Below are positions 1 to 50,410 of a DNA stretch of 64,000 nt, piece after piece. The number at the start of each line of letters is the position of its first letter. Position 1 is the first letter of the stretch. Source of the stretch: Mytilus trossulus (taxonomy: Eukaryota); NCBI RefSeq assembly GCF_036588685.1, contig NC_086375.1, positions 93,310,001 to 93,374,000 on the forward strand, read 5' to 3'. A model generated the notes under the pieces. The model saw only the letters and a program-made list of their open reading frames with translations. It ran no database searches and was not told the DNA's origin. Both the position numbers and the translations under genes were made by a program.

Positions 1-51
1 TAGGTAAAACTTACAGCTTGTGAAAACGATTTGATCACAAAAGCAGTCAAC
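1..51 (-). CDS. TEP exon 26, partial (WLTAFVIKSFSQA...)
   Basis: catag acceptor at 52-54, WLTAFV motif; probably truncated by the window edge. Confidence 0.9.
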
Positions 52-3000: not shown

Positions 3001-6000
3001 AGTAAGGCCGTTATATTCACCTTTGATTTGTAGTTGCATAGTGCAACTACAAATCATTGTTCTGGCCTTTCATTGATATTGTGTAGCAAGCTTAGAGTTT
3101 TTTTCTGAAAATATGTTGATTAAAGAGAAACTTTTAGCAGAGACCACCCCTTCTGTTTGTCATTTTTTTTATAACTGTTTTAGTTCATTGATTTTTTTAT
3201 AATTTTGAAAAATTTGTTAATTTGAATTTAGATTTTTTTTTTTTTTGATTTTCTAACTATTTCAACCTATTTTAATAAATGTTGAATTAAGTGTTTCCTG
3301 GTAGAATTTTGTCTTATAAGAATATCAGTTTATATGTGAGGTTTACTTGATGATGGTCATTAATTAGTTCTGCACAGTGAAATGTTTTGAAGGAATTGTG
3401 ACCTTCATACAAACTATTTTATAGGTCATTTCATTAATTCACCAATGTTCTATTTCTTTTGAATCCTCTGGATAGGTTTTAATGGGATATGATACACAAT
3501 GTAGCACCAATTGAATAATCTGTTTTAATAAGATGCCAGTATTTCCTGAATACTTTTTGAAGTTATTCTGCTTGAAGATGATAATATGTAATAAATGATA
3601 CTTAACATCTATTTTAAAGTTTTTCCTTTTTCTTAATTTTATCTTTTCTGTCAAGGAATTTGATAGAATTTGTTTTACCAATTTCAGTTAATAAAATAGT
3701 CTTTCAATAAAGAGTTTTCTTTCAGGTTTGTGTTTTTATGTAAATGAATACCTTTGCCTGTAATATAGAATTGGGTTGGTTTGGGTTTTTATGGAGATGT
3801 TGGAATTTTTCTGTAACACCAGTTTTTTCATGTGTTTGTCTTTGAGTATTTCAAGGTCTAGAAATTTTATGGAATGATTATTGCATTTCTGAGTAAACTT
3901 TAGCAGGTAGTGTTGTTGAATAAATTGAGTGGTAGGGATGAGCTGGTCACCATGGTCACTATTTTGAGCTCTATTACATATTTCATGAAAAAAATCTTGA
4001 AATTTAGATGGAGGTGAAGTTTTTAACCTGCCTGTTTATTTCACAAGTGTCTGAAATTAATTAGATGTCAGAATCTTGTGATGTTTGTTAATGTTTCCAT
4101 CAGTGTGGTCAAATCAATTATCTCTAAATCAATTTTCACATGCAATCTTACAAGCTATTTATTTGCTGTTTGTGCTTTTGATCCTATTATTTTGACATTT
4201 TAACCTATTTAACATTAACAATATATAATAATGAACCATTACATTACTACAAATGTATCCTGAAAAGAAATTCTGATGTGTTTAGAAGAAATGGCAATGT
4301 ATCTTTCATCTGTTAGATACATGTATTATACTTTAATTTTATCTTATTTTCATAAAAAAAAACATTTATATGCTTTCATGACAGATTTACATTTTTGATA
4401 AGTAAAAATGTGATATGGGAACGGTTGGGTACATGCTGGATCCAAATTCTCATGGAAATAATGTTGTACATCATATATAATTATATAAACGGTAGTCCAA
4501 ATAATTATGACATCTTTGAAGGCTATTTTAGATTTTGCTTTAAACCTTCCGTCATTGAAAGGCGTAAAAGAAAAAATACAATAGCCTTTCAAGACCTCAT
4601 AGTTATTGTACAAATATGGCGTAATCAATTCCATCTAAGATTTGATGGTCAGTTCTTTATCAGTTTAATGATCTTTCATCTTGTTTAATGTGACACTTTA
4701 TACGATACTTTAGTTGCACAGTTGAACTGCAATAGTTTATCCAAATAATCTAAGACATTAATCAATGCCTCACATAAATTAAGAACATATTTATAGTACG
4801 ACCTTGTGAGAAACTTTATAGATTTGGTCAGTTATATTAGCTTGAAGTAACACATTGTTTTAAGAGTGGAATTTAGTAACGTTTTATATTGGAAGTTTTA
4901 TATGTGAAACATCAAATATATATTATATATACATGTACTTTTATAAATACGATTAAACATGTGAACATTAACTCTGTGACTTTGTGGTGATATATATATA
5001 CTACATGTATAGCTAGTTCCCTATATTAACGGACAAGATGCTGTTCTCGTTCCCGGATAATGACAAGTAGTGCCAACACACAAAAAACACAAGAGAAAGC
5101 CCCGTTATATCAATATACACGGGTAAACCTACAAAAATGTAGTTTTTAATCAGTAATAGGTTAGGACTAAGCTTTTAGATACCCTTCTCTTGGTTACAAC
5201 TGCATATTGTATAAACATGTATTACTGAGTAAATCCTGGAATTCCAGAAAATTTTGGCAATGGTGAAAATATTTCCATGGAATTTTTATTTCACAACTGA
5301 TGTCTTCCGTAAGGGGGTGGCTTATTTCTGGAATAGCATTGTTTTCCCAATAATAATTAAATCACTAATCTGTCATTAATCATGCAATCACTAATCCATC
5401 AGTAATCAGTCTTAACTCGATCAGTAATCTAATCGATCACTAATCCATCAGTAATCAGTCTTAAATCGATCAGTAATCTAATCGATCAAACTCCCGAGAG
5501 AGTTTGATCGATTACTGATCGATGACTTCATGTCATCAATCGATTACTGATCAAATATGATCGATTAGTGTTCGATTACCGATCTGATCGATTAGTTAAG
5601 TCTGGACAATAGCAACCAATATACTGGACACTTGATCTGTCAAACTAATTACCACGACGACAATTTATAAATAAAACATAACTATTTAATGATTTGATTT
5701 TCAACACAATTTTTTATCAAATCTATCGAAGTTGAAAAAAGTCCGGTTAACCGGTTAGCGTTTTTGGTATTCGGTATTCGGTCGTTCGACCGATTAACCG
5801 GTTAACTGGTTAACCGTTGACAACAGTATAATAAAGTCATTCTGATAGTAGTTAGTAGTTCTGACAAAAGGTGTGACAAAACGATTGTTTAACGAACAGA
5901 CGGACGAACAGATCGACGTATGGTTTGACGTCCGGGGTTTTTTATGGCAAAACAAACCCATGTAAGGATAGTTACATACATTTAACTTGAAAGTTATTTT

Positions 6001-9000
6001 GTCCCCTCAGTGTGTCAATCAGGGTTCGTATTTACATCATATTTATGTATACATATATATTAATCGTCATCACTCACATCATCACCTGTCATTGTTGTTG
6101 CCTTTATTATTTTGTATTTGTTGTTTTGTGTTTCTGCACTTATTCTTATTAGATTAATAATATACGATGGCTTCAGAGATTTCATTATATAAGCAGGCAT
6201 AATATAGGATAAACCTTACCAGGTAGTTCCACTTTTATCGTTGTTTCCAAAAGCGCTGAAAGATCCATCATCATGAACATAGGACAGTTCTCTTTGATAA
6301 CCTATTGAAGAGAACAATTATGATAACGTTAATGCATTTTTAGAGATATGCTTAGCTACATCTAAGTACATCTTGTTAATAGCTAACAGCTAATACAAAT
6401 TTGCATAACATTGATAAGTTATTGATCTGAGTACACAGTTATCGTCCTTTGATTTTCGTTGTCCTTTTCGTTGTCCACGAATATAGTCCATAGTGCGGAC
6501 AATGTATTACTTGCAAATTTATTTCTTGATGTGTTATGTCTTAAATAGCAGGAAGGGGATAAAATGGCACTGTAAAATAAAATTGATTTATGAATTTAAG
6601 AGAAGAAGAAAATATAACGTTTATTATTTTTGAAAGAAAGTTTTGACTTATGGAACATGCAGACACTTGCTTTTTGATGAAGCATATATATCTTGAACAT
6701 TCGTTTATTTCGATGAATTTTTATTCAAAATTCATTTTTATATTGATAACTCATTAATACAAAGAACCATAGGTTATCGCTCTACATTAAAGCACTAATG
6801 TAACATACGTTTTAACTAATTATGAATGCATTTAACGTGGAGTGGCTTATTAAACAGAGGCAGAAGGCGTAAATTATTCACACCATTATGAATGAATGAC
6901 ATATCATTTTAAAAATAAGTCGTAAATCAGACGTGCAGTTATTTTGTCCCATTAAGTCTGATAAGCTTGTAAGTTTGATATTTTAGGTCTATCGACTTAT
7001 TTGTATTACCTCCCTCTAAAATGCTCTCTACTCTATTTCGTACATCATTTGTAAGTCTGTTTGTTGTTTTCAGGTAAGAGCTGACGTAAACATTTGGAGC
7101 GAATCTGATCATGTTCTGTTCTCCACAGCCGTATGAAATCTGAAGGAGATCCTCCAGGCCGGCTAGTGTTGCCCCTAATAGGTCACCTGTGAAAAATATG
7201 TTACACGTAAAAATATGTTACACGTTTAGAGAATTGATTCACAGATTGTAATACCAGAAAATAAAATAATAAAATAAACATTCGAAATTATGTTGTATCA
7301 AGTGAACGGTGTAATCGTGTTCAATTATTTTAGGAAAGTTGATTTCTGATTCGTTTTATTCTTGTGACAAAACTGTTACCATGGTAGGAATATGACAGTT
7401 GTTATTCATTCGTTTAATATGTTTGAGCTTTTGATGTTTCCATTTAATTAGGGACGTGAATTTTCCTCGGAGGTCATTTTTTTTGTAATTATACTTTTTT
7501 GTAGGCAATTTCTTACTGTAATTGTTCAAGTAACACAATATTTCTGCTGGTTTATTCTGAAATTTCTTCTTCTAACTAATTTTGTATCTTTCGTTAGTTA
7601 TTTTTTTAAGTTTTATTGTGTATTAAGTACATTATAACTGCAATGAAACTTTTTTCATTTTTTTTGCCTCACTTAGTCGTATGCCAGTAGGTTTTTTTTG
7701 TTACTTTTTATTGCATTAAAGCATGACTTGTTAAGAAAACCCGAAATCTGTTTTTGAAACTATGATTGTTATGGAATTAAGATACTGGTGTTTAAATAAA
7801 AACATGTTGTTCAATATAATTAAAGTCAATACTCACCAATAACTTGAATTTTGATAAATTCTGAATCTTCAACAAGATTTGGCGGGAAAGACAAAGAAAT
7901 GGTCTCACGAACCCTTCCCCCTTGTCGGAGGTCAATAAGTAATGGAACGTTGTAGTTTTGTTTGATACCTTCGGCCTACAATTTTCAATAACATATATCT
8001 AATTTTAGGCTTAGTTTAAATTAACTCAATTTACTGGGGTTGTGACCGATTTTTTGCTACACGAAAAGGAGTTCACTATCAGATTTGAAGAGAAAAAACT
8101 GCAGTCAATTCAAAAATAAATTCCAAATGTTCATTGACTGAAAGTACATCATCATATTCTATTTAAATATAAAAATAGAAATAGAAATAAATTTCAAATG
8201 AAACAAATTTGTCGACTGATGGCATAGTTTTATTCTTCTGTTCAAGTAAACTGTTCAAACATTTTTTTCATATCTTAAGGCTTCGTAACAGACGTAAAAA
8301 AACAAATCAAAGAATAAAGATGAAAAATAATAATATGATGCACACCCGTCTTTAATTACAAGTATCCATAATTCTGTGAGTAATTAAATTACCTCTATTA
8401 GGAATTCACGCTGTACAGCGTCGGCTCCAATAGTAGATCTTGCAGTTCCGTCCAAAAGTATTTTACCAAGAGCTGTTGGTTTGAGAGGAAAATATACAGA
8501 CGCCACACTGTCTTCCTTCACTAACACAGACTGTTTAAAAACGAGTAAGTTTTATTGGTAAGTTTGAAGGAAATTATTCTTTATGCCAGTGTCTGAAGGG
8601 ACGTTTAAGATTTAGGTGCCTATAACTTGTCTATAACTAGTACAGTTTAAGCTAGGGATTTCGTAACCAAATTCTTAAAACTCATACCAAATCAATCATA
8701 GACAACCAGATTTGGCATTTTGGCTGTACATGAGCAAAATCAAAAATGGCATTTAACATATAGTTTTAAGGATGATGTTCTTGAGAACTGCAAACACTCT
8801 TAAATTGGTGCTTTGTGTCTTTAATGTGAGTTGTATAATATTGTTCTTCTAGCTGATCTTTCGGGTTCAGTCATTTTGATTCTTACAAAAAACAAAAATG
8901 TTGGGCTATTAAGCAAACGTGTAATTAAATTTCTCTCAATATGCATGTTATATATATGGGAGTTTATAAGGAACGACATTAAATAAAAATAAACAACATC

Positions 9001-12000
9001 TAATGCTTTTGAAAAATGAATATAAAAAACTCTACTATTACAAATATAACAAAAAATATTGTATACTTCTTTTACATGACATACACAATGACATATATGT
9101 TAACAAATATAGGTCACCTACTGTGGACAACAACGCCTTATTCAAATAGAGTCTACTCTACAAAAGTGCAGTACTCTATAATAGAACACTCAAACTTGAG
9201 TGTTTTTATATGTTTGTACATGATAATAATTAGTATACCTATTCATTGATACTACACTATAAAATCATTATACAGCTACCTTTGTCCACCCGTCTGGGCC
9301 TGGATTGAAGTCGTTTCCGTTAGCATCAACAAAGGTAAAGTTAACATTGTTAGCAAGCTTTACAGAAACCTGGAAATAAACCACATGTTCAGTTTCCATG
9401 GATATATAACTAACCTAAAAGTTTATATAGCGTAAGAATCTTCAAGCAAGGAATTTTAGTGATACGTGTTTTGCTTGATTTAAACTTTGAGCCGTAGCTG
9501 ATTCGTATTTGTAAATAAAACAACATATTTTGAAGACACTTGGATATGACCACAAAGGTAAACGTTTCTTTGGAGTTGCAGTTGTTGTTCATGTGTATTG
9601 GCTTTTGATTTTGCCATTTGATTATGGACCTTCCGTTTTTAATTTCCCTCGGAGTTCAGTATTTTTACTTTTTCACTTTCGAGTGTATGAATAAAAGAAA
9701 AAAAGAGTACTTGGTAAAGAAAATGATATGTTACGTAGATAATCCCTAATTCAAAATAAAAATATGATAAGAAATGAAATTTTAGTAATTTGTACTCAAG
9801 CTAGGACTACTCCTCAATTTATCTGACAATGGGATGTAGTTCAAAACTTAGATTATGTATAACGTTAAATGACATCTTCTTTCTAACTGGCTTTCCATGC
9901 CCCACCTACGATAGTAGAGGGGCATTATGTTTTCTGGTCTGTGCCTCCGTTCATCCGTCCGTTCGTTCGTCCGTTCGTTCGTACCGCTTCAGGTTAAACA
10001 TTTTAGTCGAGGTAGTTTTTGATGAAGTTGAAGTCCAATTAATTTGAAACTTAGTACACATGTTCCTTATGATATGATCTTTCTAATTTTAATGTCAAAT
10101 TAAAGTATTGACCCCAATTACATGGTCCACTGAACAAAGAAAAAGATAGTGTGAAGCTCAGGTTAAAGTTTTTGGTCAAGGTAGTTTCTGATGAAGTTGA
10201 AGTCCAATCAACTTGAAACTTAGTACACATGTTAACTATGATATGATCTTTCTAATTTTAATGCCAAATTAAAATATTGACCCCAATTTCACGGTCGAGT
10301 GAACATGTAAAATGATAGTGCGAGTGGGGCATCCGTGTTCTATGGACACATTCTTGTTTCTCCATGTCTCTCATTCTAGACGACACCAGGTATACAGTTA
10401 TACAATTAGCACTAAATACGATTGAATAATTTTAACTCTGAACACAAAATATTTGCATACCTGGTAGTGCAATGCTTTGAAACATATCAATGGTAAAGGA
10501 GTAGATTGAAAAATCTAATGCAATTATTTATGTAATAATTTTTTTTATTGTTAAAAAAGTTACCCTCAAATCCATAGGTTACATGCTTACATGTCATAAC
10601 CAAGGAGTGACCAACTATTTCAAATTGATAGAATAAATATATGTTTGATTACTAAAAAGTAAAATTACAAAAATACTGAGCTCCGAGGAAAAGTCAAAAC
10701 GGAAAGAACTTATAAAATGACAAAATCAAAGGATTAAACACATCAAAAGAATGGACAACAACTTCATATTCCTGACTTCGTACAGGCATTTTCCAATGTA
10801 GAAAATGGTAGATTGAACCTGGTTTTCTAATCCTAAACTTCTCATTTGTACCACAATCGCATCAGTTTCAATTATATTGACAATTTTGCGTGAACAAAAT
10901 GTCACAAATAGGGGTACAAAAAAATCTTAAAACCTAATAATAAGATGTTATTATATGACTTTATCCAAATTTGAATCGCAGAGGTAATGCAATATAAGTT
11001 TTCATTTGTATGACATTAAGTTAAGTCTTGGCACCAAAATCATTCATAATGTTTCGCAGAAATTATTTTATTTCAAAATTATACATTTTCAAGCTCTCAC
11101 GTACAATTTCTTTTTGTTATCCATTAGAATCAGCAAAACAGTTGTTTGCGACCGTCAAATCTTCAATTGACGGTGACAACTGTACTGTTATTCCTTGAAT
11201 AATGATTTGGGAAGGGAGTATTGCGGTGAATTTTTGAGGGACAAGCAATCAAAACGTTCTCTAGATATTGAAATATGTGGTATTATTACCATTAAGACAT
11301 ATTTCCATCCATTCATTTTCAGCACTATTTGAAATAATAAGCCTTTTTAGTATTAATAAACACTTTTCATATGAATCATATTTATAAAACAATGTATCAT
11401 TTGATTTATTTCAATTAACTGGGCGGAGTTAAAACGGTTCGCTCATCATTGACCAGTCCATCTACTGATAGTTGTTTTTGGATAAACTCATCAATAAAGT
11501 GTCCATTTATGGTCATAGTAAATTCGTTTGGAGACACTGATAGATGATCACAAATCAATGATAATTATAACGGCAATCATTCTGATCACACACATCTTCG
11601 AATAGACTGTCATTGTACATTTTAAAACGTTAGCTCCGCCAGATCAGTTGAAATAATAATTGGGTTACAAGGTAGACGATAAATTGCATATGAACTCAGT
11701 TAAGGTACAAGTGACTCTTTTCTTTAAAAGCGTCCGTGTAACTCCATAAACAAGTGTCCGTGTAACACCCGTTATTGTACTGATTTTCTTTAGCTCCACT
11801 TGGGGCAAGGTTATAGAAACCTTAGAAATGTTAGTTATCCATACAGATAAGAGTAATGAACAAGTGTGTTTATGTTATTAAAAAAAATAGTCTCATCTAA
11901 ATTATGAGAGAACCTTTAAAATCAATATACTTTTACATCAACTTATACATTTAATATTTAAATAATTAAACTTGTACCTGTTGATCTTGGTCTAAGTAAT

Positions 12001-15000
12001 TGAATACTGTGGCTTGAACTATAATAACCTCCCCTCGTATGGCAGAATACGGAAGTTCAAAGCGCATGAAAAACCTTTGGAAAGTTGTTAACTGAAATAT
12101 ATTGTATTAACTTTCCTATTGGTATGTGTGTTATAAGTGCTCTTGAATGGATAAAATGATAAATTCTCTACAATTTGTTTTGCATAATATAAAATTAGTG
12201 TGCTGCTACAAAATTACATGATCACGTAATATAAAATGATAAATACTGCAAATTTTTCTTTTACAATTTCAGTTTTCATATTTCTCTATATGTAATTTTC
12301 TCTTTTACAAAAAATACAAATGTAATTGAATTTGAATTTGAATGGTGCAAAATTTAATCAGGATCTTCATAACACCCAGACGAATAACCGACTTATAAAC
12401 ATACCTTTGTTTAATAAAATATAATTCAATTTAGATGTAAACTTATAAAATATATTAATTACATTTGCAGTATTTGCAGCAACTCCGAGACCGGTGTTTG
12501 GATTAACAGCAAATGCTGATGCAATCCATTCTGTAATAGTATCCGGAGCTGTTGTTCTTATTGTTGCAGTTCCATCCGAACTGAAATGAAATTATGTTTA
12601 TTAATTAGGTATAATTGAATAGATTCAACAGTATAGCCGCATTATAATTAATCTAAACTTTGGAAATGTAACAACATAAAAACTTTAGGCACGTACATAA
12701 ACATAAGGAGATGTTTCATGGTTACAATAAGGCAACTATCCACATATAGTCAGCATTATAAACAAATATATTTCGTAAAATGAGAATATTTTGAACGGGA
12801 AAACAAATATAGGAAGATGTGGTGTGAGTGCCAATGAGACAACTATCCATCCAAATAACCATTTAAAAAAGTAAACCATTATATATCAATGTACGGCCTT
12901 CGGCACGGGAACTTGGTTCACATCGAACAACAAGCTATAAAGGACCCCAAAATTACTAGTGAAAAACCATAAAAAAGGGGTAACCAACGGTCTAATCTAT
13001 ATAAAAAAACGAGAAAAGAGAAACACGTATAAATTAGATAAACATACGACAACTACTGTACATCAGCTTCCTGACTTCTATAACTAACTTTGCGGTATGA
13101 GCTGATTATTTCTTGATTTGTTAATATTCCCAATGTTACGACATTCAAAAAATGTGCGCTTCTCCTCTTTTGCTAATTCATAATGCATGAGAAATCATAA
13201 TCTAACCAAATCACCTTCATAACTAAGACATGATCAAATATGATATTTTAATTAATCTTACCTTTCGAAACGAAACGATAATAGGTGAAACAGATGATTT
13301 TTTTTTGTATGTCCTACTACTCACCGATGTTTCTGTTATGTTGTCTGCGATTTAATGGTTGAATAAGATTATTCAAAATATTTTGTTGAAAATGTTACAG
13401 AATGATTTTATTTTTTTACTTTTAAATCCTCAATCCAATAGCGAAATCAAATAAAAGCTCATCAATTATTAAACGAATGGATAACAACTGTCATTTCTTG
13501 ACTTGATACAGGCATTATTATGTTTTTAGAAAAAATTTTGAATTTAACCAAGATAAACCTCTCACTTATATGACAGTGGCATAAAATGCCATTGAATTAG
13601 CAGCAATGTGTGAACAAAGCTAACAAATATAATAGGTACAAATGTTAATAAAAAAAGAAGAGGAAGGGGGAAGACAGCAGTCATTAGTGTGTTATAATCA
13701 TTAAAGAAGTAGATTAATAAAGGCAACAGTAGTATACCGCTGTTCAAAACTCAAAAATACATGGACAAAAAACAAAATCGGGGTACAAACCTAAACTGAG
13801 GGAAACGCATTAAATACAAGAGGAGAACAACGACACAACATTTAAATGTAACACACAGAGAAACGGACTAAGCAATAGACAAAATCCAATGAGAATAACA
13901 AATATAACATAAAAACAAAATCAAGAAAAACAAAAAGGTAAATAAACAAAGCTCATTAACAAAAACGAAAGAGACGAACACAATACCGGGTAATTTACCA
14001 TAATACTATAACACAATGACGAGATGTATAATATCAAGCCACGTCAAATGGATATTACCAAAATTAGACTCAAAAGTAACAAGTTCTTCAATCCAATAGC
14101 GAAATCAAATAAAAAGCTCATCAATTATTAAACGAATGGATAACAACTGTCAATTCTTGACTTGATACAGGCATTATTATGTTTTTAGAAAAAATGTTGA
14201 ATTTAACCAAGATAAACCTCTCACTTATATGACAGTGGCATAAAATGCCATTGAATTAGCAGCAATGTGTGAACAAAGCTAACAAATATAATAAGTACAA
14301 ATGTTAATAAAAAAAGAAGAGGAAGGGGGAAGACAGCAGTCATTAGTGTGTTATAATCATTAAAGAAGTAGATTAATAAAGGCAACAGTAGTATAAAGTA
14401 AAATCACAAAAATACTGAACTCAGAGGAAAATCAATTTGGAAAGTCCATAATCACATGGCAAAATCAAAAAACAAAACGCATCAAAAACGAATGGACAAG
14501 AACTGTCATATTCCTGACTTGGTACAGGCATTTTCAAATGTAGAAAATGGTGGATTAAACCTGGTTCTATAGCGCTAACCCTCTCACTTTAATAACAGTC
14601 TCATCAAATTCCGTTACATTTACATGATGCGTTAAATAAACAGTCACAATCAATAAAATAGTCAAAATATGGGAACATCAGTCATCATTTGTCGTTCAAT
14701 GTGCATACAATAGTTATCAAAAGTACCTGGATTATAAACAATTTTAAATTTTACAGAGGCAATGAGCGCAGACAGGGTTAAAAAATCAAAAGTATGTAAG
14801 AATAAATTACAGAAATCGAACTAGTCCAAAAGTTATACATAGAATTTATGAGAATCCAAAACTTTTAAAAGGAACAATTTAACAGGACACAAAAACCTAT
14901 CCACGAACACATGGATCTACTTGAGTGTCCGACGTCAGAAAAAATATATACGTCACATAAATTTGTCGTTCAATGTGCATACAAACAATTTTAAAATTTA

Positions 15001-18000
15001 CATAGGCAATGTACGCATACAGGGTTAAAAAATCAAAAGTATGTAAGAATAAATTACAGAAATAGACCAAGATTCAAACTAGTCCAAAAATTATACATAG
15101 AATATATGAGAATCCAAAACTTTTTAAAGGGAACAATTTAACAGGACACAATAACATCTACTGTCTAAGAACACATGGATTGATTTGAGTGTCTGACGTT
15201 AGAAAAATTATATACGTCACATAAATTTGTTGTTCAATGTGCATACAAACAATTTAAAAAAAAATTTCATAGGCAATGTACGCATACAGAGTTAAAAAAA
15301 TCAAAAGTATGTAAGAATAAATTACAGAAATAGACCGAGATTCAAACTAGTTCAAAAGTTATACATAGAATTTATGAGAATCCAAAAATTGTCAATTCCA
15401 CTACGCCATTGATTGATTTTGACGTTTGTGGTTCAATGTATACAAGTAATTCATAATAGAAATATATCATAATGACATATTATAGACAAATATCATACTG
15501 ACGGGATCTTTTAAAGTACAGAGTCACGTTATAAGCACAAAAGAAATACAAAGAGTCACATATACAAAACAAATCACCAAAAAATGAAAGCCAATACAAA
15601 CACATTGACGAGATGTATAAGTACCGAGCCACGTCAAACGGATATCACATAAAACCATTCAACAGTAAAAGTAATCTTAATAATAGAACAAAAACAAATA
15701 AAAGAACAATAAAACATGTTGTTAAGATGATACACAACATCAGTACGCAAAATCTATACATCAAGACCATCGTGTATTATTTGAAAAGTTGATATACCGC
15801 TGTTCAAAACTCAAAAATACATGGACAAAAAACAAAATCGGGGTACAAACTTAAACTGAGGGAAAAGCATTAAATACAAGAGGAGAACAACGACACAACA
15901 TTAAAATGTAACACACAGAGAAACGGACTAAGCAATAGACAAAATCCAATGAGAATAACAAATATAACATAAAAACAAAATCAAGAAAAACAAAAAGGTA
16001 AATAAACAAAGCTCATTAACAAAAACGAAAGAGACGAACACAATACCGGGTAATTTACCATAATACTATAACACAATGACGAGATGTATAATATCAAGCC
16101 ACGTCAAATGGATATTACCAAAATTAGACTCAAAAGTAACAAGTTATAATTTACAAAGACAAATTAGAAAGAAAAAAAACTGTAACATTTAATTAAGATG
16201 ATAGACAAAACATCGTCGTACCCAGAAACTAGACTTCAAGACCGTTGTGTATAATGTGTGAAGTTAATACACAAGTTTATCAAAAAGCTCTTTGTATCGT
16301 TCAAAAAACTATTTTAGTAAAAATAATAGACGTTCTTAAACATAACTGATGCATCACATTCCTGTTAAGACACTAGTGAAGGTCTGAGTTGCAACTTCAG
16401 GCTAGTGAGTACCTAATGCATTGGGAAAAGTATATCCAATATGCAGGTGCAGTTGGAGTATTGCTTTTAAAGTCTCGGAAACTGATTTTTTTTTTTAAAA
16501 GTCTAGTTTGTTATCAGATGTAGGTAACAGCTTGTTTGTAGTACTGTATCTGCTTTAATCTATTGGTTTAGAACGTAGCTTAACAATACATTATTTACAA
16601 TAAAGCTCTTGCACTCTACAATACGTTGTTCATAAAATTAAAGTATACCGAACCACAAAAAAAAAAACGGAAAGTTCCCAAGCAAATATCAAAATCTAAA
16701 ACCTCAATAAACATTATCAAACAAAGTCAGCATAAGGTTATTTAGTTTTTTATTTAGACTTTATATTGTTCCAATTCTTGCAGGTTTGTACAACTGGTGT
16801 TGACCATTTGAGTAAAATTGAAGTTGAAGAACTAAAGTAATATTCCAACTCAAAGAATACTCACAATCTCCTAAATCAACACGAAATGCATAATCTGCTT
16901 ACTTGAAATCGGGTTATCCCGTTAGAATTCTATTATACATGAAAAACATAGTGACCACCGAAAACCAATGACTGGAAATCACGAACCCCTGGAAAAACCT
17001 TGGGTATACATTTTTACACAACATATCAATTTTCATATCTACAAAATCATCAAAATGGATATTTATCATCAGAAGGTTTACATATAATAGCTTCATTCCT
17101 CACCTTGTTGTTTTATTGACCCATATCCAGGTTTCCGGAAATTTCTTTCGAGTTCTCCCAACAGATGCCAATTGAGCAGATGCTGCTCCTTTCTCAGCAG
17201 ATAATGCCCAACGTGCCCATTCAGCTGAAACAATTTACCCTAGTATTTCCAAATATAGCAATCGATAAGGACCTCTTGATGATTGAAAAGTGAAAGGAAC
17301 GATTTTTTATTATATATAATGCATGCGTATCCAGCAAACAGATATGTACCACATTCAACCTTTGCAAGGCAAAATTTATAGTCAAGCACATTCACCTTGT
17401 ATTGTCCCATATCCATGTTATGCGTACTACTTTCCTTTCAACTTGAGAAGAAAAGTCAATAATAAACCCTATAATGATCATATTACAGAAATTGATCAAT
17501 TGTAATGGTAATGTCTCACCCTGTAGTGCTGTTTACCCACAACCATGTTTCTGGAAAATTCTTCCGTGTTCGTGTGGGACTAGCAAGACTGCCACTTCCT
17601 GCGAATCCTGCAGCGCCCCCTCCTAAGCCCCCTCCTAAGCCCCCTCCACCATCATCAGCGAAGGATGCAGAGGGTCCAGGTTGGCCACGGTGTCCAGAAG
17701 AAAACATTCGCACGGCTGAAATTAAATGAATGCTCACCAGCATGCAGAATTTATCCATTATTATGCTGTAAAAAAATACTCCTAGTTTAAACAAGGGAGA
17801 AGGTCCGGTAAAGGCCGAATTATCCTCAAATTTAAGATTCATCTGACGAAAAATTGTGTACACTTTTTAAACACTTAAGTGTCTATTTTATTTAAATCAA
17901 TTAGTTTCTGTGAAAGCTTTTAACTGATTTAGTCATTAAAAACGCACTAGTTTTTGTCTGAAATGAAAGTGGTCGCATCCTTGTTCATCCTCAACCTTTA

Positions 18001-21000
18001 TATATATTATGTTCTATCGTAAAATACAACTTGCATTTCAATATTAAGGATGAACACGAATGCTGCCACTTTCGTTTTACACGAGAACCGTCTAAAATTT
18101 AACTAAAATGCTAGAATTGTGAAGTTTTCAGTAATTTCGCATGACTTAATGGTGCTAGTACCCGATACTTGTGCATGGTAGGGTCAATACAGCCCATATT
18201 AATGTAGCAGAAGCATTTTACTGTGCAATAAATAACTAAAAGTTAACATTTTAACAATTTTGTAAAACAGCTATACTTTGGGGCCAAAAAGGGTCTTACT
18301 GGACCAACTCCTTTGCTATTCAGTCATTTTAATTCGCAAATACTTTTCTTCTTCATTGCTTTATATAGCCCAACAGGACGACAATCACCAGTATAAATCA
18401 TATACAGCTACACGTAAATCCAACTTCACTCTGGCAAATAAGATGAAAAAACATGCTACACACTAAATCACTAAATAAGCTAATTTTAAGGAAAATAAAA
18501 GGAAGCTATATAACACCAAATGTTATTGTAGAAGGAATATCAATTGTTTTTTGTATTAAACCTTAATGAAAAATCAATTTTGGTCCCTAATTAATCAAGT
18601 ATGGTTAGTGTACATAACCTTTATACAGTGAAAAACTTATAATTTATTGGACTATCAAAGAAATCTAAGAATATATGATAAAACTATACAAACGGTAAAA
18701 ACATAAAACTAAATGCAAGAATTTAAACAGATCATGACTTAACTTTGAAAGTGAAAAGCAATCAATTTTCTCAAACCATTAGGTCGTTTGCTACTCTCAC
18801 TCGACAAAAAGATCTATATTAAGACTCGGATCTGATATTTTGTTATAATGGTATGCAGACAACCTGATAATCAGATCACATACTCTAAATTCTAAAATTG
18901 GAAAAAAATACTGATGTTGTTTTCTGCAAGTATCAGATAATCGATAGAATATTTGAAAGTCCATCAGTAACCTTATATGAATAACACTCTAAAGTTTAAC
19001 AGTTCAATTGCCTTATCAATGCAACCGGCTAAAGAAACAATCGAAGTATTACATTTTAATTCTATAATAAAAAATTCAAGTGTTAACTGGATTTTTGTCT
19101 GATAAAACCGCTTCGTTTAAAAAAAACGGACGGGTTATAACAACTTATCTTGTCATGTAGGTAATTATGTTATCCCTGTTACAAAATTATATATGTATGT
19201 GTTTGCAGATAAAGATAAAGTAACCTTAAAATAAATACTTATTTGAAGAATTATACTCTTTAAAATAGGTTTCTCGATTCGAAACATAAAACGTAACACG
19301 ACGAATGTCACCAGAGGAGGACGAATTTGTTTTATGAAACTCTGATCTGTGTTTCTCAGTCTTTTCTTATTTTTTTGGTATTTATTGGTGTCTTCTTTGC
19401 AATTCTTATTTGGCTATTTTATTGATAGACCGCCTTCTTATTTATTTATTTTTTAACTTAGTGACATGTATTACACTTGTTTAGCAGATACGGGACTTTC
19501 CATTTTGTATTTTATTCGTAGTTCGATATTTTTGTTATTTTATCTTTTATAATACATGAATAAACAAAAGAGATATTAGCGTTTTATTATCGATGTTAAC
19601 CTATGTTTCATTAGGGCACCCAGTTCTGAGCAATAACCACCATTTCAAACCCCGGTGTATTGTTTGGGCTGTCACATTTTAATGTTTTCCTAGTGTTATG
19701 GGTTAACATACTTACATTGTGGAGGAATATACTGATAAAGCAAAGCATCTGTTAATACATAAACACCAGCTCCCTGTTGATAAAATAAACCATGTACAGT
19801 AGTTGTCGTTTGTTTATGTAATATATACGTGTTTCTCGTTTCTCGTTTTTATATATAGATAAGACCGTTGGTTTTCCCGTTTTAATGGTTTTACACTTGT
19901 AATTTTATGGCCCTTTATAGCTTGTTGTTCAGTTTGAGCCAAGGCTTCGTGTTGAAGGCCGTACATTGACCTATATTGGTTTACTTTTATAAATTGATAT
20001 TTGGATGGAGAGTTGTCTCATTGGCACTGATACCTTATCTTCCTTTATCAGTTTTTAGTGACAAACTATTCTGAAAACAGTTCGACAATTATGAATAAAT
20101 AAAGGCAACAGTAGTATACCGTATATAGTATATAGTATGAAATGTTCCTGAAAAAAACTTAAGCATATATCATTATATTTATTTTTGCTATGCAAACCTT
20201 TTTTCCCCTATGCAATAATATTTTATCTAAAAATGCATCTGACAAGGACATTTAGATTTGGTCATTGTTGTTTTTTTGCAACTGCCTGGTCATTTATTAT
20301 TGACTTTTGAGTTTTATTATCACTTTGGTATCTTTCGCCTCTCTTTGTATACCCCTTCTTTTGTATTTTAAATACATGTACTTGAAATTGTTCAGAACTA
20401 AAGCTTAATTGTATTTTTTTATAAAATGTGCTGTTATACTTACATTAAAAATCGAGAATGCATCCCTGCCGTAAACAGGTCTTGGTAACCAGAAGTCCCA
20501 ACTACTTCTTGAAAAGAATCCCGAGTTGCCATAACTTTGAAGTTCATTCAATACCTATGAATATTTAAAAGTGTTTTCTTTTTAAATACAATGAAATCAG
20601 TCAATAAAACTTATAAACTTCAGTGTTCCTGATGTTTCGTTGTCTTTCTCTTTTAGATGATGTGTTTCCCTCAGATTATTTTTCTCTGAATCGATTGATG
20701 TCGTTTAAACAGCGGATTACTACTGTTGCTTTTTAATACCACATATTTTGATTTTTTTTTTATAAAAAATATAATATCCAAATAAGTCTTTAAGGCCGTA
20801 CTTTAACCTATAATGGTTTACTTTTTAAATTGTTATTTGGATGGAGAGTTGTCTCATTGGCACTCACAACACATCTTCCTATATCTATTTAAGAGTGCTC
20901 GCGAGTATAAATCATTTTTTTTCTAATATAAGATTTCGCTATATTTTTCTATAAATGAATTTTATCATATACTTAACAGAAAAATGGAAAAAAATGAGGT

Positions 21001-24000
21001 CACCGTTCATTAAAGCTCACAATCTGCCTCCGAAAGAAGCATACATTTTTGTCCTTTTTTTCTGTTGGACTAATAGGAGAAATAGAGGTAAAATCGAAAT
21101 AAAAAAATAGCCTTATTACAGAAATGTCTTTACTTTTACAAATATTTAGTGTGTGTAAAGTTTATTTGAAAACATTAACAAAATATATAGGTCACCGATG
21201 AGTTCAAAAGGATATTAAAATTTTATTGCAAAAAATGTCATTTTTGCACCAAAGGGAGATAATTTGGACTTTTTCATTGATATAAACATTTTTTGAGTGA
21301 TCTGGGGCCAAACCGAATCGATTTTTTGGTTGATTTTTGTACCATATCATTAAGTAAAAACTAATAGTTTTATAAATAAAATTTATTATATACTTAGTAG
21401 TAAATACAGATATATTGTATGTGAAATACAATCAATGGCAAGTGTGCTGTATCAGCCACCCGTGATGATATCATTATCAGCACGATTGCAAAAGCTTTAT
21501 AACATCTTTAATATGTATGACGTCACGTCATCGATAGCAGTTACTGTTGTCAAACCTATAATCTGTATGACGTCATTTCAAACCTCATCATCTGTATGAC
21601 GTCATGTCACATAAAAACATCAACTTGAGGTATATGTATATAATAAAGTGTATATGATATGGCCTTTTCAATATCACACACCGTATTTACCCTCAACCAA
21701 TATAACCCCTCGAGCAGAGCTCTTGTGATTATATTGCTGTCTCGGGTTAATACGGATGCGATATTGAAAACGTTATATGATATTCCCTATTCATCATGAA
21801 AAAAAAATGTTCATTATTCATTATTGGATTCATGGTTTAATGGTGTCCATTTTCGGTGAATTTGTTATGTTATTGATTAGAGTGCCATCCGCTTTTAGGT
21901 GCGATATTTTCTCATTGTGTTTAATGCTCATTGGTGGCATTGGGCTATTGTTTTCACTGTCCTTGGGCTCGGGTTGTTGTCTTTGACACATTTTCCGTTT
22001 CAATTCGTAAAGGAATCGAAATTAATGCGTCATGTTTTGTTAGCTGCTTCGAATCACTAAATGAGTATTTTTGTGTAGTGATATCATCTCCTGATTTCGG
22101 TGATAGAACATTTTNNNNNNNNNNNNNNNNNNNNNNNNNNNNNNNNNNNNNNNNNNNNNNNNNNNNNNNNNNNNNNNNNNNNNNNNNNNNNNNNNNNNNN
22201 NNNNNNNNNNNNNNNNNNNNNNNNNNNNNNNNNNNNNNNNNNNNNNNNNNNNNNNNNNNNNNNNNNNNNNNTGATATCATTTCCTGATTTCATTAATAGA
22301 ACACTTTTCTCGACTGCTAGACCTTTGAGAGAGAGAGAAAGAGATACTTACATATTGTGTAGTGATTTCATTAATAGAACACTTTTATCGACTGCTAGAA
22401 TATTGAGAGAGAGAGCTTACATCTTGTGAAGTGATATCATTTCCTGATTTCAATAATAGAACACTTTTATCGACTGCTAGAACATTGACTAATGAGTTTG
22501 GATCCGCTGTCAATCCGACTTCTACGTCATCACCTGGCTTAGCTCGTCTTGTGTTGAAGTTAATGTTCACCTACAAAGTACGCAAACAATCAGTATAGTG
22601 ATCTAACACTATAGAAAAATAACATTTTTTAACTTAATATGTTTAACATATCTATAATGACAATATGAACGCAATGAATAAAGTATCATGTATTGTTCAA
22701 GAAGGTGAAGTGAGAAGTGAAGGGATGTTTTCCTTCAACATTTATATATTTATGCTTGAAAAAGGAACAGATGGGTAACGAGTAATTAACATTGGCATTA
22801 AAGTGCGAGGTTTGGCATGCCACAAAATCAGGTTCAACCCACCATTTTTTTTCTTTAAAAATGTCCTGTACCAAATAAAGGCAACAGTAGTATACCGCTG
22901 TTCAAATCTCATAAATCCATGGACAAAAAACAAAATCGGGGTAACAAACCAAAACCGAGCGAAACGCATTAAATATAAGAGGAGAACAACGACACAACAC
23001 CGAAACGCAACACACACAGAAACGGACCAAGCATCAGACAAAACACCGCGAGAATAACAAATATAACATGAAAACCAAATACATGAATTTGGGATAGACA
23101 AGTACCGTGCCACGTCTTATCTCAATATCTCAAAAATAAGAGGAAACACAAACGACTCGACGTTAAAATGCAACACACAGAGAAACGAACAATAATATAA
23201 CAATGACCATCTTCCTGACTTGGTACAGGACACTTTTAAAGGGGAATAAAAGTGGTGGGTTGAACCTGGTTTTATGGCATGCCAAACCTCGCACCTTAAT
23301 GGCAAAGTTGAATATAACATTGAAATAACAACATAATAATTCCAAGTCAAGAACATGGACATTGTTATATTATAGTTCGTTTCTGTGAGTGTTACATTTT
23401 AACCTTGTGTTTCCGTCGTGTCTCTTATATTTGAGTGTGAAGTCACATTACTATAAGACGTGTCACGGTACTTTTGTATCCCAAATACATGTATTTGGTT
23501 TTGATGTTATATTTGTAATGCTCATGATTATATTTAATGCTTTTCCCTCAGTTTTAGTTTGCTACCCCGAATTTGCTTTTTGTACATAAATTTACGAGTT
23601 TTAAACAGCGGTATACTACTGTTGTCTTTATTTATTTCCTTCTATTGTGATTATGCTTTCCTTAAGGTTAAGGAACCATTTTATTTATTACTTTGTATTC
23701 ATTTCGAAATCATTTGCCTGCAGAAGTACAGATATAAAAAAAATGTTCAAGTGTTTGAGGATTCTGTATGAAATCTTTACCAAATAAAAGTGTGTAATAT
23801 GGCATGTTAAAACTTCATATCAGCAGTAACCGATAACATCATGTTATACATATTGTATCATCTATAACTAGTATTGTAACTTGGCTTTTGTTACTATTGC
23901 TACTTAATATCGATATTTCTAATAACTTATGATAACAGTGCAATCCTGTACCACATAATCAGGCAGGACAAAGAAATTTACATTGCAATAGACCAATTTG

Positions 24001-27000
24001 GTACCTCGTTATAAGATATTACTAATAACTAACGGATATAGAGCAATTCTGTACCACATTATATAATAGGAAAACGACAAATTAACATGAAAATAGAGGA
24101 ACTCCATAAAACTTTTCAAGACAACACGAAAAACTAATAAAACAAAACAATTCCGTACTACATCGTATGATAGAACAAACAAATTAACATGTACTAAAGC
24201 AATTACAAACAAATTAACATGTATTACTATGGAAATAGAGCAATTCCGAAACTTATTTTTAAAAGTAATGTATTCAATTAATGATTACTAACCGACTACA
24301 ACAAATACTTACTTATTCAATATGCCCTCTACAATGGGAAATGTAATTGCAATCAGCTTATTTTTATCTTTGAGTTTGACTGCCCCTCTTGTATCTTTCG
24401 CCCGTCTTCTACAACTTACTTTAATATTAGACATATCTTTAATATTAATTGTAATTGCATCAACTACAACTTACTTTATTTTTGAATATATCCTCAATAG
24501 GAAACGTAATGGCATCAGCTACAACTTCGCCATTTCGTCGTCTTACATAGTAAATCAGTAACTTTGCTTGAGGAATCATTGCATAATTGATTCTGAGGGT
24601 ATGATCATGCTGCTTTCTGTTTCTCATACCGAATCGTCCATTTTGTACAAGTGATCCTTTTGAAAAAACCTATGGGAATGATTTTGATTTGAATGAATAA
24701 TTTTGATAAAAGATATCCTGAAAGAAGACGAACATATATTTCGTATGAACTCTTTTCGAAAATATGATGAAAAGCATATCTGATAAACAATATTCATGAC
24801 AAAATAAAAAGCTCACACATTATTGGTGACATTAAAATGCCGACTGGTAACCCGTTGAATGCTCTATGAAATTAAACGTGTAATACTAGCCCTGAACGTG
24901 TCATTTCATTTACGGCTAGCCCGAATATTTCTGTACTTTTTTTCCTCGAAAAATGAGAATATTTTATAGTACTATGTTCCTAACAAATCTCCTGGTGTTA
25001 AATTTAGGTCTCATTATATTCATTTTTAAATATTTATAACGATATAAGGTTGCCTATTTTTTATTTTGGTAAAATTCTGACCCCTTGTAGTTATCATTTA
25101 AAAAGCCACTAGTATGTACTAGTTTTGCGGATTACAACTTGAAACGTATAAACAAATCTACCCCTTACATTAAACCAATAAACATAATTATGAATCGATA
25201 GAATTATAGTAGTTATGCATACTCCATTTAATTAATATTTCAGATAAATATTTCGTGGCGTTCGCAATAACATACTTTGTAATTGCAGAAGCGGATCATT
25301 TCTGTTACTTTTATAACCAATGGTAATCTCTGACCAGGCTGAATATAAATGAGAATAAATACTTTTAAACAAATAAATACAATGTGATTGATACAGAGAT
25401 ATCCTTTTTCATTGCATATTGCCTTTTTGCAGTGATCTGTCTAAAGAAAAGTTTCTATTCGAATTCGGTATGAATGGTCATTATGCTACATCAACACTTT
25501 AAAGAATTGGTGATGATTTTTTTCTTATAAGTTTTTCTTCAATATTCAAATAAACAGCGAAAATTATTTCGTAACGTGTATTTATGAATACTTGAGGTTG
25601 AATACATCTTCGGTGCTCGTATGTTTCTTCCTTTTATGTATGTATTTGTTTCTTCCTTTAATGTATGTATTTGTTTCTTCCTTTTATTTTTATATGTATT
25701 TATGTATGCATTCGTTTCTTCCTTTAATGTATGTATTTGTTTCTTCATATCATTTATTCTATTGCGTTGTGTTAGGTACTCCGAAGCCTGATATGATGTC
25801 TTCGTATTTAACTCTCAAAGAAATATTGCATTTGTTGATAATGTGACTAAAAAACCGTAAGTGTAAGTTTTTATTGTATGTTGAATATATGAAAAGAATT
25901 GTTTTGAAATCTGTTTTAAGTTTCATTTGAATAAACAGGATTGATTTGACTATCAACAATGCCTGCTCCTTTTGAAGTTTACCTGAGCTTTTTGGTTATT
26001 TTTAACTTCAACTTGTATGTAGTTTCTGCTAGGGGATTCTGCACGGGACAAATATCTGGACGCTCTCGATTTGCGATAGACAGCCTGTTTAAAAAAATGT
26101 ATATAATGGGATTGTATATAAGTACATAGACACAACCGATTCAAATTTAAATTTTGAAAAAAACTAAGCATTTGTACAGTTTTAATAATTGTTTAATCGC
26201 AACAAAGATTTGAAAATATTTATTTTTAGTTTCATGTATTTTACTGTTAATGAACCAAACGTTTTTATAGTTAAGAAGGATATAAATAGTCTAGATTTAT
26301 AATGTTTTCACATCAACTAATTTGTCAAACTTTCAAAGAATTTTAAGAAATTTTGTATTAGCTTGTTTTTGAAACAGATATATATAGATATAGGAAGATG
26401 TGGTGTGAGTGCCAATGAGACAACTCTCCATCCAAATAACAATTTAAAAATTAAACCATTATAGGTTAAAGTACGGCCTTCAACACGGAGCCTTGGCTCA
26501 CACCGAACAACAAGCTATAAAGGGCCCCAAAATTACTAGTGTAAAACCATTCAAACGGGAAAACCAACGGTCTAATCTATATAAACAAAACGAGAAACGA
26601 GAAACACGAATATATTACATAAACAAACGACAACTACTGTACATCAGATTCCTGACTTAGGACAGGTGCAAACATTTGCAGCGGGATATAGTCTAGAAGT
26701 AAAATTTGGAAGATAAATTTTGTTTGATTTTTCCATCTTTTACTAGTAAGAAGACTATTTTCTATACTCTCAACTTTTTAAACATCTTATATTGTGTTCA
26801 CTCTTAGTACTATTCTTTTTAGACCCAAGCTGATCTTTAAAATATAAAGATAGCATCTATAACACAATGTCATAGTTACTGATAAATAAACTTACTTTAA
26901 GTTTACATAACACTTTATCACTGATAGCAGTAATAACAGATGAGACACTACAGGGATTCGCTGACGCCGTTACGAATGTTTATATAAATAGACTAGAAAT

Positions 27001-49295: not shown

Positions 49296-50410
49296 TTCTT
49301 CTCTTCTTCTTCTGCTTCTGCTTCTGCCTGATAATGGCAACAATCAACGAGCTGATTATTTTGCCATGACTTAGGTGCGCATACAGAGCCCCCCTCTCCC
49401 AATTCGATAGTTTAGTTCATCTTTGTCTGTGATGCTTTTAAAGACCTTCATCAGTTACAGCCACTTTGTCGTGTTCTATTTTATAGAGCATAGTTAGCCT
49501 AGCGTCTTTTCGACTTTTTTCCAGAGATGGCCAATCCAGGTGTTTAATCATTTTGCTGACACTTGAGTGATTATGGTGTTTGTTGGAAACATATCTTGCT
49601 GCTCTTCTCTGGGCCATTTTTAAACTATCTATTTCGGTTTTAAAGTATGGGTCCAATACTGGACTTGTATACTCCATTATTGGTCTTGCGAGGCTTTTGT
49701 ATGCATTTTCTCTTTATGAAGTTGTTCCTATGTTAAGTTTTCTCTTAAGGAAGCCTATTGTCCTATTGGCTTTGTTGCATATATTATTGATATGATCATT
49801 CCACTTCAGTTCGGATGTGAAGGTGCAGCCAAGGTATTTAGCACTTTTGACAGGTTCCATTTTGTGGCCATGCAATGTGTAAAAAGTAAAATCACAAAAA
49901 TACTGAAATTAGAGGAAAATCAATTCGGAAGGTCAATAATCACATGCCAAAATCAAATAACAAAACGCATCAAAAACGAATGGGCAAGAACTGTCAAATT
50001 CCTGACTTGGTACAGGCATTTTTATATGTAGAAAATGGTGGATTAAACCTGGTTCTATAGCGCTAACCCTCTCACTTTAATGACAGTCTCATCAAATTCC
50101 GTTATATTTACATTGATGCGTTAATTAAACAGACACAGTAAATAAAATAGTCTAAATATGGGTACATCAGTCATCATCGTATAACAATTTTAAAAAGGAA
50201 AGGTTTAAGATGTCGGAATGGTGTTGTTTTTGCGGCTGATGGTGAGAACGTTGCATTTGTCCGGATGGAAGGACATTTTCCATTTGACTTCCCATGTTCC
50301 CAGTTTGTCGAGGTCGCTTTGAAGGTCATTTAAACCTTTGTCAGATGAGATGGGAAGATATGCTATTGTATCATCAGCAAATAGGCGGACAGTGGATTTG
50401 ATCCCATCTT
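49296..50410 (-). mobile_element. 5'-truncated non-LTR retrotransposon (CR1/L2-like RT fragment) interrupted by a repeat at ~49882-50198
   Basis: VRLFADDT catalytic motif, F.PDKC, MEY...DPY...QRRAARY; 3' GCAGAA/GAA microsatellite tail. Confidence 0.85.

What the first reader, a model, noticed from the sequence alone, without database searches (positions are those of the whole stretch)
17396..17441. Hidden 46-nt third cassette that would give a baitless TEP isoform
Seen: between 18A and 18C is a micro-exon with a pyrimidine tract, AAG acceptor and GTGAAT donor. It has the same phase 1-to-2 geometry and an open frame, FERKVVRITWIWDNTS. It keeps TWIW but lacks the bait and the FPE residues, and its acceptor lies only 78 nt from the 18A donor. 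Inference: it is either a functional isoform with almost no protease-cleavable bait (locked or differently activated) or a duplicate in mid-decay.
Basis: partly seen in the sequence, partly recalled or inferred. Interest (0 to 1): 0.7.

Follow-up and report, generated by a model that had tools for sequence, protein, structure and literature searches.

The report
Shrunken, likely dying bait-exon copy
A mussel immune gene of the thioester-protein family has two intact-looking alternative 'bait' exons with a 46-letter shrunken look-alike between them, which is likely a decaying duplicate rather than a working 'baitless' variant; such exon arrays are already known in snails, scallops and flies.

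Summary
The micro-exon (18B, minus strand 17441-17396) is there as described: 46 nt, AAG/GTGAAT sites, phase 1-to-2, open, 78 nt from the 18A donor. It lies in the bait-exon cluster of a Mytilus CD109-like/TEP gene and is most likely a duplicate of cassette 18C. One correction: FPE is replaced (RK-VVRI-TW keeps the register), not deleted, and two codons are missing after TWIW. All 34 other cassette motifs in 14 TEP genes of this genome have F-x-E, the Arg and a donor exactly 8 codons after the first Trp; so do 12 of 12 transcribed snail cassettes (136-231 nt). The lost Phe is the plug of native A2M-family proteins, so an 18B protein would likely collapse or misfold rather than lock. Two other broken cassettes lie in this genome, and neutral-decay simulation leaves an open frame in 9-17% of recognisable remnants. 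No RNA or orthologous DNA could be examined, so function is not excluded (about 8%). This scan has noted bait-exon arrays before, on other DNA. Verdict: ordinary exon birth-and-death in a known kind of array.

The parts
17396..17441 (-). 18B: 46-nt degenerate bait cassette (ERKVVRITWIWDNT), AAG acceptor, GTGAAT donor
17396..17468 (-). Alternative 73-nt form of 18B from an upstream TAG acceptor; also 3n+1 and open
17442..17519 (-). 78-nt intron between 18A donor and 18B acceptor; branch-point-like TGAC with A at 17456 (intron base 64)
17520..17715 (-). 18A: 196-nt intact bait cassette, the one used by protein P0001
17104..17224 (-). 18C: 121-nt intact-looking cassette (RTRKKFPETWIWVNKTT); 8 synonymous and 3 non-synonymous codon differences from 18A over 17 codons; in no protein record fetched
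19716..19773 (-). Exon 17 (end of LNK region, GAGVYVLTDALLYQYIPPQ), phase-1 donor
12463..12580 (-). Exon 19 (rest of second half of MG6), phase-2 acceptor
7010..7186 (-). Exon 24 with intact thioester motif GCGEQ
1..47446 (-). Host gene: CD109-like / invertebrate TEP, coding exons 1-26 in the window, continuing past the window start

Best explanation
18B is a 46-nt look-alike of the bait cassettes that lies between 18A and 18C and is likely a tandem duplicate of 18C that lost its bait by internal deletion and is now decaying, so it would rarely or never give a working protein. Shown: position, splice dinucleotides, open frame, DNA likeness to 18C, loss of F-P-E, two missing codons. Inferred: a whole 18C-like unit was duplicated; about 69 nt of bait were deleted; the plug segment then took several substitutions or small compensating indels and the strand after TWIW lost 6 nt; the frame stayed open by luck; the 3' end looks better kept because of former use or local gene conversion. 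If ever spliced 17-18B-19, the chain would have 21 residues from the LNK T-D to the first Trp, no plug Phe and a hairpin two residues short, and would likely fold as a collapsed, thioester-spent or misfolded protein. The gene itself likely switches between 18A and 18C by frame-enforced mutually exclusive splicing.
For: (a) 34 of 34 F[PL]E[ST]WxW motifs in the 14 TEP genes fetched have a GT exactly 8 codons after the first Trp and Arg at -7; 18B has 6 codons and V-R-I, each found in 0 of 34. F and E were in the search pattern, but a scan without them found only 18B and four stray WxW hits. (b) 12 of 12 transcribed BgTEP2 cassettes keep R-x-x-F-x-E and the 8-codon spacing (read by eye) and are 136-231 nt. 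(c) 30 of 30 scorable library relatives (of 144 hits) keep R, F and E; first-Trp-to-PD distance is 20 in 28, 19 in 1, 21 in 1, against 18 for 18B. (d) T-D-to-Trp span 21 against 38-78 in 18 Mytilus spans and 54-87 in 14 library proteins. (e) Arg730 and Phe733 of A2ML1 form the plug and are strictly conserved; F735A raises collapsed A2M. (f) Broken cassettes exist in this genome: G000:C14:72111890-72111944 has lost both Trp and has an in-frame stop just upstream; a G000:C4 cassette ending at 36134883 has an in-frame TAA. (g) Simulated neutral decay of 18C leaves an open 3n+1 exon with WxW in frame in 9-17% of recognisable remnants; with three degenerate cassettes seen, one in frame is unremarkable. 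(h) 0 of 8 cluster members from three Mytilus species use 18B. (i) Two neighbouring paralogues are identical over the 17 codons of this block, so recent copying or conversion of it happens here.
Against: Both splice sites survive and the donor scores high (8.8 bits). The 3' block differs from 18C by only 1 of 24 or 2 of 27 bases while flanking introns are unalignable (binomial p 0.04-0.09 at an assumed 19% neutral divergence, 0.02-0.21 over 15-25%). The invariant Arg and the Lys sit in exact register, though in this purine run other frames also read K, R or E. Both deletions are in frame. AAG acceptors are used by 2 of 12 transcribed BgTEP2 cassettes and 1 of 25 introns here, so AAG is no sign of death. 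18C is also absent from all 8 cluster members, so absence from protein records is weak. Two draft M. galloprovincialis models (P0010, P0015) carry an even shorter link with no WxW at all; these are fused 'hypothetical' predictions and I take them for artefacts, untested. The simulation's rates are my assumptions.
Confidence: 0.72

Rival explanations
1. 18B is a functional cassette giving a nearly baitless TEP that is not triggered by the usual proteases (locked, or made directly in the activated shape).
For: Open 3n+1 frame, both deletions in frame, strong donor, likely ancestral acceptor, R-K and T-W-I-W in register, better-kept 3' block. Bait length is known to tune the native/collapsed balance of A2M.
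Against: Loss of F-x-E and of the 8-codon spacing is seen in 0 of 34 genome motifs, 0 of 12 snail cassettes and 0 of 30 library relatives; span 21 is far below the shortest seen (38); the short linker still has R, K and F, so it is not free of cleavage sites; no protein record uses it.
Confidence: 0.08
2. 18B is kept as a splicing element, not as coding: an 18A-18B or 18B-18C join gives an immediate stop and would feed nonsense-mediated decay, or its donor acts as a decoy that tunes the 18A/18C choice.
For: 17-A-B-19 and 17-B-C-19 both stop at the junction; the 78-nt intron has a branch-point-like A at base 64, so the A-B join may be physically possible; splice sites are better kept than the coding core.
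Against: The 18A-18C join stops in the same way without 18B, so this is a property of all phase 1-to-2 cassettes; it does not explain why TWIW is kept; no convincing pairing element touches 18B among the 25 longest of 204 inverted repeats shown; the neighbouring paralogues have no such element.
Confidence: 0.08
3. The used exon is the 73-nt form from the TAG at 17469, giving a short-bait isoform (span 30) and lying only 51 nt from the 18A donor, as in sterically exclusive arrays.
For: This acceptor scores 8.5 bits against -0.4; frame is open; a G000:C4 array has 27- and 28-nt spacers.
Against: It still lacks F-x-E and two codons; its added residues (FIIDFSSQV) read like AT-rich intron; the weight matrix rests on 24 sites; the 46-nt start resembles the ancestral cassette start.
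Confidence: 0.05
4. 18B is a chance intronic look-alike, not descended from a cassette.
For: Profile E-value only 0.41; not significant against 18A or three paralogues; a stray RK-x4-SWIW with no acceptor occurs in the G000:C6 array; two chance pseudo-exons with equally scored sites lie in this gene's introns.
Against: 1 of 300 shuffles reach the 18C alignment score, which ends exactly on the donor; acceptor-anchored alignment to 18C is reached by 2 of 250 intronic AGs; it lies between two true cassettes.
Confidence: 0.05

Closest known systems
Biomphalaria glabrata BgTEP2, 12 mutually exclusive exons 22A-L (Duval et al. 2020, PMC7016707; passages, section 3.3 and Table S4 seen)
   Same: Tandem phase 1-to-2 cassettes for the bait-like region, ending R-x-x-F-x-E-[TS]-W-x-W plus 8 codons to the donor, after a 58-nt upstream exon (exon 17 here is also 58 nt).
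   Different: All 12 are 136-231 nt, transcript-supported and keep F-x-E; none is baitless. 18B is 46 nt with neither.
Chlamys farreri CfTEP, seven isoforms from six mutually exclusive exons (Zhang et al. 2009; paper not held, known only from one sentence in PMC7016707)
   Same: Bivalve TEP with an alternative-exon array in the hypervariable region.
   Different: Exon sizes not seen; the seventh isoform could be a precedent for a short or missing bait and could not be checked.
Drosophila melanogaster Tep2 exon 5, five isoforms (passage in PMC5489563)
   Same: Alternative exons for the hypervariable bait-like region.
   Different: All five are described as bait variants; no degenerate copy is mentioned in the passage seen.
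Plug-in-channel element (alpha'NT / BR-C) of A2M and A2ML1 (passages of PMC9352918, PMC9156758)
   Same: The R-K-x-F-P-E-T-W of 18A and 18C aligns to A2M and CD109 R-K-[YH]-F-P-E-T-W (through paralogue P0019).
   Different: 18B keeps the Arg but has Val for the Phe and Arg for the Pro.
Broken cassettes in this genome (G000:C14:72111890-72111944; G000:C4 cassette ending 36134883)
   Same: Cassette copies in TEP bait arrays that have lost coding features.
   Different: Those have stops; 18B is open and keeps both Trp.

Membership tests
A2M-family thioester protein (CD109-like / invertebrate TEP), host gene | MG2, MG3, A2M_BRD, A2M, TED and receptor-binding domains in order | tested here: met
   Pfam scan of P0001, which maps letter for letter onto 26 exons of the window
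A2M-family thioester protein (CD109-like / invertebrate TEP), host gene | Intact GCGEQ thioester motif | tested here: met
Mutually exclusive bait-region cassette | Lies between LNK exon and MG6 exon, length 3n+1, phase 1-to-2, AG/GT, open frame | tested here: met
Mutually exclusive bait-region cassette | Homology to neighbouring cassettes | tested here: met
   1 of 300 shuffles against 18C; 2 of 250 at the acceptor; weak by profile, E 0.41
Mutually exclusive bait-region cassette | Encodes a variable bait segment upstream of the conserved motif | tested here: not met
   One residue between exon start and R-K; span 21 against 38-87
Mutually exclusive bait-region cassette | R-x-x-F-x-E plug motif | tested here: not met
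   R kept; F, P, E replaced by V, R, I, each 0 of 34
Mutually exclusive bait-region cassette | Donor 8 codons after the first Trp | tested here: not met
   6 codons in 18B; 8 in 34 of 34
Mutually exclusive bait-region cassette | Tandem inclusion is non-productive | tested here: met
   A-B, B-C and A-C joins stop at once
Mutually exclusive bait-region cassette | Junction reads to flanking exons in RNA | not testable with these tools
   No run was listed, so no reads could be laid
Mutually exclusive bait-region cassette | Conserved frame and splice sites in orthologous loci | not testable with these tools
   No related genome is offered; scans returned nothing
Pseudo-cassette (dead exon copy) | Stop codon, frameshift or lost splice dinucleotide | tested here: not met
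   18B is open with AG and GT; the case for decay rests on lost motif, lost bait and indels
Sterically exclusive exon pair | Donor-to-branch-point distance under 50 nt | tested here: inconclusive
   Best motif at base 64 for the 46-nt acceptor; weaker motifs at bases 24-42 would serve the 73-nt acceptor; criterion from human data

The most novel reading that the evidence does not exclude
18B is spliced in some tissue or challenge and yields a natural baitless, plug-less thioester protein: secreted already activated, or deaf to proteases, selected by exon choice. That would be a splice switch between trigger modes rather than between baits, and a natural test of the plug-in-channel model.
Probability: 0.08. 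Interest if true: 0.6.

Novelty: new member of a known kind. Interest (0 to 1): 0.13.

Why it matters
As read here it matters little: it is a snapshot of exon birth and death in a bait-exon array of a kind already published for snail, scallop and fly. Of modest use: cassette 18C and several multi-cassette arrays in this genome (8, 5, 4, 4 and 3 cassettes) show that mussels diversify TEP baits the same way; 18C is in none of the protein records fetched. If 18B were functional it would be a natural thioester protein without bait or plug, which would bear on how the A2M family is triggered.

Tried and rejected
RNA: no RNA holder listed; this is no evidence either way, and no reads were laid. Exact 27-nt scan of metagenome contigs: 0 matches. 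Protein search with the 43-residue frame through 18B, lengths 23-76: no candidate. Short-protein search around the bait: 6 hits, none with an 18B- or 18C-like exon. 18B region occurs once in G000, so no second allele or copy to compare. AlphaFold of paralogue P0019 on a 3-sequence alignment: mean pLDDT 31, not used; the 18B isoform was not modelled. Inverted repeats in 12400-19900: no docking/selector-like pair at the cassettes among the 25 longest of 204. Pfam: nothing on the 18B or 18C frames. Zhang et al. 2009 not held. Literature searches for a mussel TEP array or a baitless TEP isoform and for degenerate exon copies listed none that describe one; only listings were seen for most hits, and subscription papers are not searched. 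Rejected: 'FPE deleted' (register kept); 'AAG acceptor proves death' (used by transcribed cassettes); '78 nt enforces exclusion' (not shown); 'intron retention fuses 18A and 18B' (TGA follows the 18A donor). The acceptor-side likeness to 18C is only suggestive, since the first 45 nt of the same intron also align to a paralogue's post-donor intron.

Full report
Setting. The window is G000:C3:93310001-93374000. Its minus strand holds a thioester-protein gene: protein P0001, named by its source 'CD109 antigen-like [Mytilus trossulus]', maps letter for letter onto 26 coding exons, has the A2M-family domains and an intact GCGEQ. Exon 18 covers the bait region; P0001 uses 18A (17715-17520, 196 nt).

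Observation. Between exon 17 (ends 19716) and exon 19 (starts 12580) a scan for phase 1-to-2 exons ending in W-x-W gives three related candidates: 18A, 18B (17441-17396, 46 nt) and 18C (17224-17104, 121 nt), plus one unrelated stray hit in an intronic repeat. Each single cassette keeps the frame; skipping all three, or joining any two, gives an early stop.

Is it more than chance? Probably. The 18B region aligns to the 18C region with score 40 (shuffles 24.6 +/- 3.8; 1 of 300), ending on the donor. Its first seven bases match the start of C-type cassettes at 6 of 7 (0.18% of 2186 intronic AGs), and an acceptor-anchored alignment to 18C is reached by 2 of 250 intronic AGs (both post hoc, and not significant against 18A, 97 of 250). 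Against: a profile of 34 cassettes finds 18B only at E 0.41, and it is not significant against 18A or three paralogues. I put real descent from a cassette at about 95%.

What changed. Relative to 18C, 75 nt are missing: about 69 of bait and 6 between TWIW and the donor. FPE is not deleted: R-K-V-V-R-I-T-W stands in register with R-K-K-F-P-E-T-W. The DNA here can be read as 8 substitutions in 12 bases or as about 4 substitutions with small compensating indels; it is too short to decide.

Comparison inside the genome. Exon 19 finds 14 TEP genes. I fetched 10-30 kb on the exon-18 side of the 13 others. They and the window hold 34 F[PL]E[ST]WxW motifs, all with GT exactly 8 codons after the first Trp and Arg at -7; arrays have 8, 5, 4, 4 and 3 cassettes. 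A scan not asking for FPE added 18B and four stray WxW hits, which I set aside as another frame of a cassette, two lying upstream of the exon-17 equivalent and one without an acceptor. Two further cassettes are broken: one on C14 lost both Trp and follows a stop, one on C4 (counted among the 34) has an in-frame TAA. So copies are born and die in these arrays. The nearest paralogues have a single cassette each and no 18B-like piece.

Comparison outside. 0 of 8 members of the P0001 cluster (three Mytilus species) use 18B or 18C. Of 144 library hits to exon 19, 30 could be scored: all keep R, F and E; the first-Trp-to-PD distance is 19-21, against 18 for 18B. The LNK-to-Trp span is 38-78 in 18 Mytilus spans and 54-87 in 14 library proteins; 18C gives 44, 18B 21. 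The 12 transcribed BgTEP2 cassettes are 136-231 nt and, read by eye, all keep R-x-x-F-x-E and the 8-codon spacing; two use AAG acceptors (PMC7016707 Table S4). Two draft fused models (P0010, P0015) show a shorter link without WxW; untested and likely mis-predictions.

Splice signals. With a matrix from the gene's other 24 acceptors, the 18B AAG site scores -0.4 (real sites 0.2-10.5; 42% of intronic AGs score as well), 18C 1.6, 18A 5.6, and the TAG 27 nt further upstream 8.5. The 18B donor scores 8.8 (10 of 2430 intronic GTs). A random intronic position has an in-frame, open acceptor of that strength in 10-14% of cases. The matrix is small and noisy.

Does the open frame imply selection? Weakly. 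In a simulation of neutral decay of 18C (one large deletion, 10-20% substitutions, 1-3 small indels; my assumptions), 9-17% of remnants that keep AG, GT and both Trp codons are also open, 3n+1 and in frame. The 3' block is closer to 18C than neutral drift predicts (p 0.04-0.09 at 19%), which fits earlier use, current use or gene conversion; two paralogues identical over this block show that such copying occurs. By contrast 18A and 18C differ at 8 synonymous and 3 non-synonymous codons of 17, the mark of long selection on both.

What the protein would do. In A2ML1 the R730-P734 stretch threads a channel formed by MG2, MG3 and LNK, with Tyr732 and Phe733 as the plug, and R730 and F733 are strictly conserved (PMC9156758 passages). 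In A2M, F735A and related changes raise the collapsed form, and bait length affects formation of the native form (PMC9352918 passages). In mosquito TEP1, 23 residues of this region are unmodelled (PMC3464232 passages). The cassette motif aligns to this stretch. An 18B chain lacks the Phe and Pro, has a very short tether and a shortened hairpin. I infer collapse or misfolding rather than a lock; this was not modelled (one search gave no usable model, and it was of a paralogue).

What is known. Mutually exclusive bait exons are published for BgTEP2 (12), CfTEP (6; via PMC7016707) and Drosophila Tep2 (5; PMC5489563 passage). Searches listed no paper on a mussel array or a baitless isoform; Zhang et al. 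2009 was not held, and its seventh isoform, and the figures of Duval et al., were not seen. Earlier notes of this scan report such arrays in two other genomes; nothing near this window or by sequence.

Verdict. Observation confirmed. Most likely a decaying duplicate of 18C (0.72); functional baitless isoform 0.08; splicing element 0.08; 73-nt form 0.05; chance 0.05. The deciding data, junction reads and orthologous loci, could not be examined. Interest 0.13.

Noticed in passing
window 17104-17224 (-): Cassette 18C looks fully functional and resembles the sole cassette of the neighbouring paralogue, yet is in none of the 8 cluster proteins: a likely unannotated isoform.
   Followed up: partly
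G000:C14:55285698-55300600 (-), L049-L050: TEP gene with 8 bait cassettes; two (ending 55300401 and 55295791) are near-identical recent duplicates.
   Followed up: partly
G000:C14:72098600-72117906 (+), L052-L054: TEP gene with 5 intact cassettes plus a dead one at 72111890-72111944 (both Trp lost, stop upstream).
   Followed up: partly
G000:C4:36130931-36135430 (-), L063: TEP gene with 4 cassettes; three are packed with 27- and 28-nt spacers, too short to splice, a textbook steric arrangement; the third has an in-frame TAA.
   Followed up: partly
G000:C2:1064263-1075523 (+) and G000:C6:11377469-11389351 (+): Further arrays of 3 and 4 cassettes; the C2 array may extend beyond the 30 kb fetched, as no exon-17 motif was found.
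   Followed up: partly
G000:C6:11378940-11379000 (+), L058: Intronic RKKIAFSWIWDLVV with RK-x4-SW register like 18B, but no acceptor, weak donor and no profile hit; probably chance.
   Followed up: partly
G000:C3:93184542 and 93251979 (-), L045, L044: Two tandem paralogues have identical DNA over the last 17 codons of their cassettes but different baits, suggesting gene conversion of the conserved block.
   Followed up: partly
P0009, P0012: M. edulis records of the orthologue have a bait 24 residues shorter than M. galloprovincialis (span 38), the shortest natural span seen.
   Followed up: no
window 49441-49713 and 50208-50408 (-): Open frames that resemble non-LTR retrotransposon reverse-transcriptase pieces (recalled motif, not searched).
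   Followed up: no
window 34900-35750 (-): Frames with a GIY-YIG-like motif, perhaps a Penelope-like element in intron 6 (recalled motif, not searched).
   Followed up: no
window 58600-59900: Long tandem repeat giving repetitive open frames.
   Followed up: no
window 13400-16150: Internally duplicated repeat blocks in the intron between 18C and exon 19.
   Followed up: no
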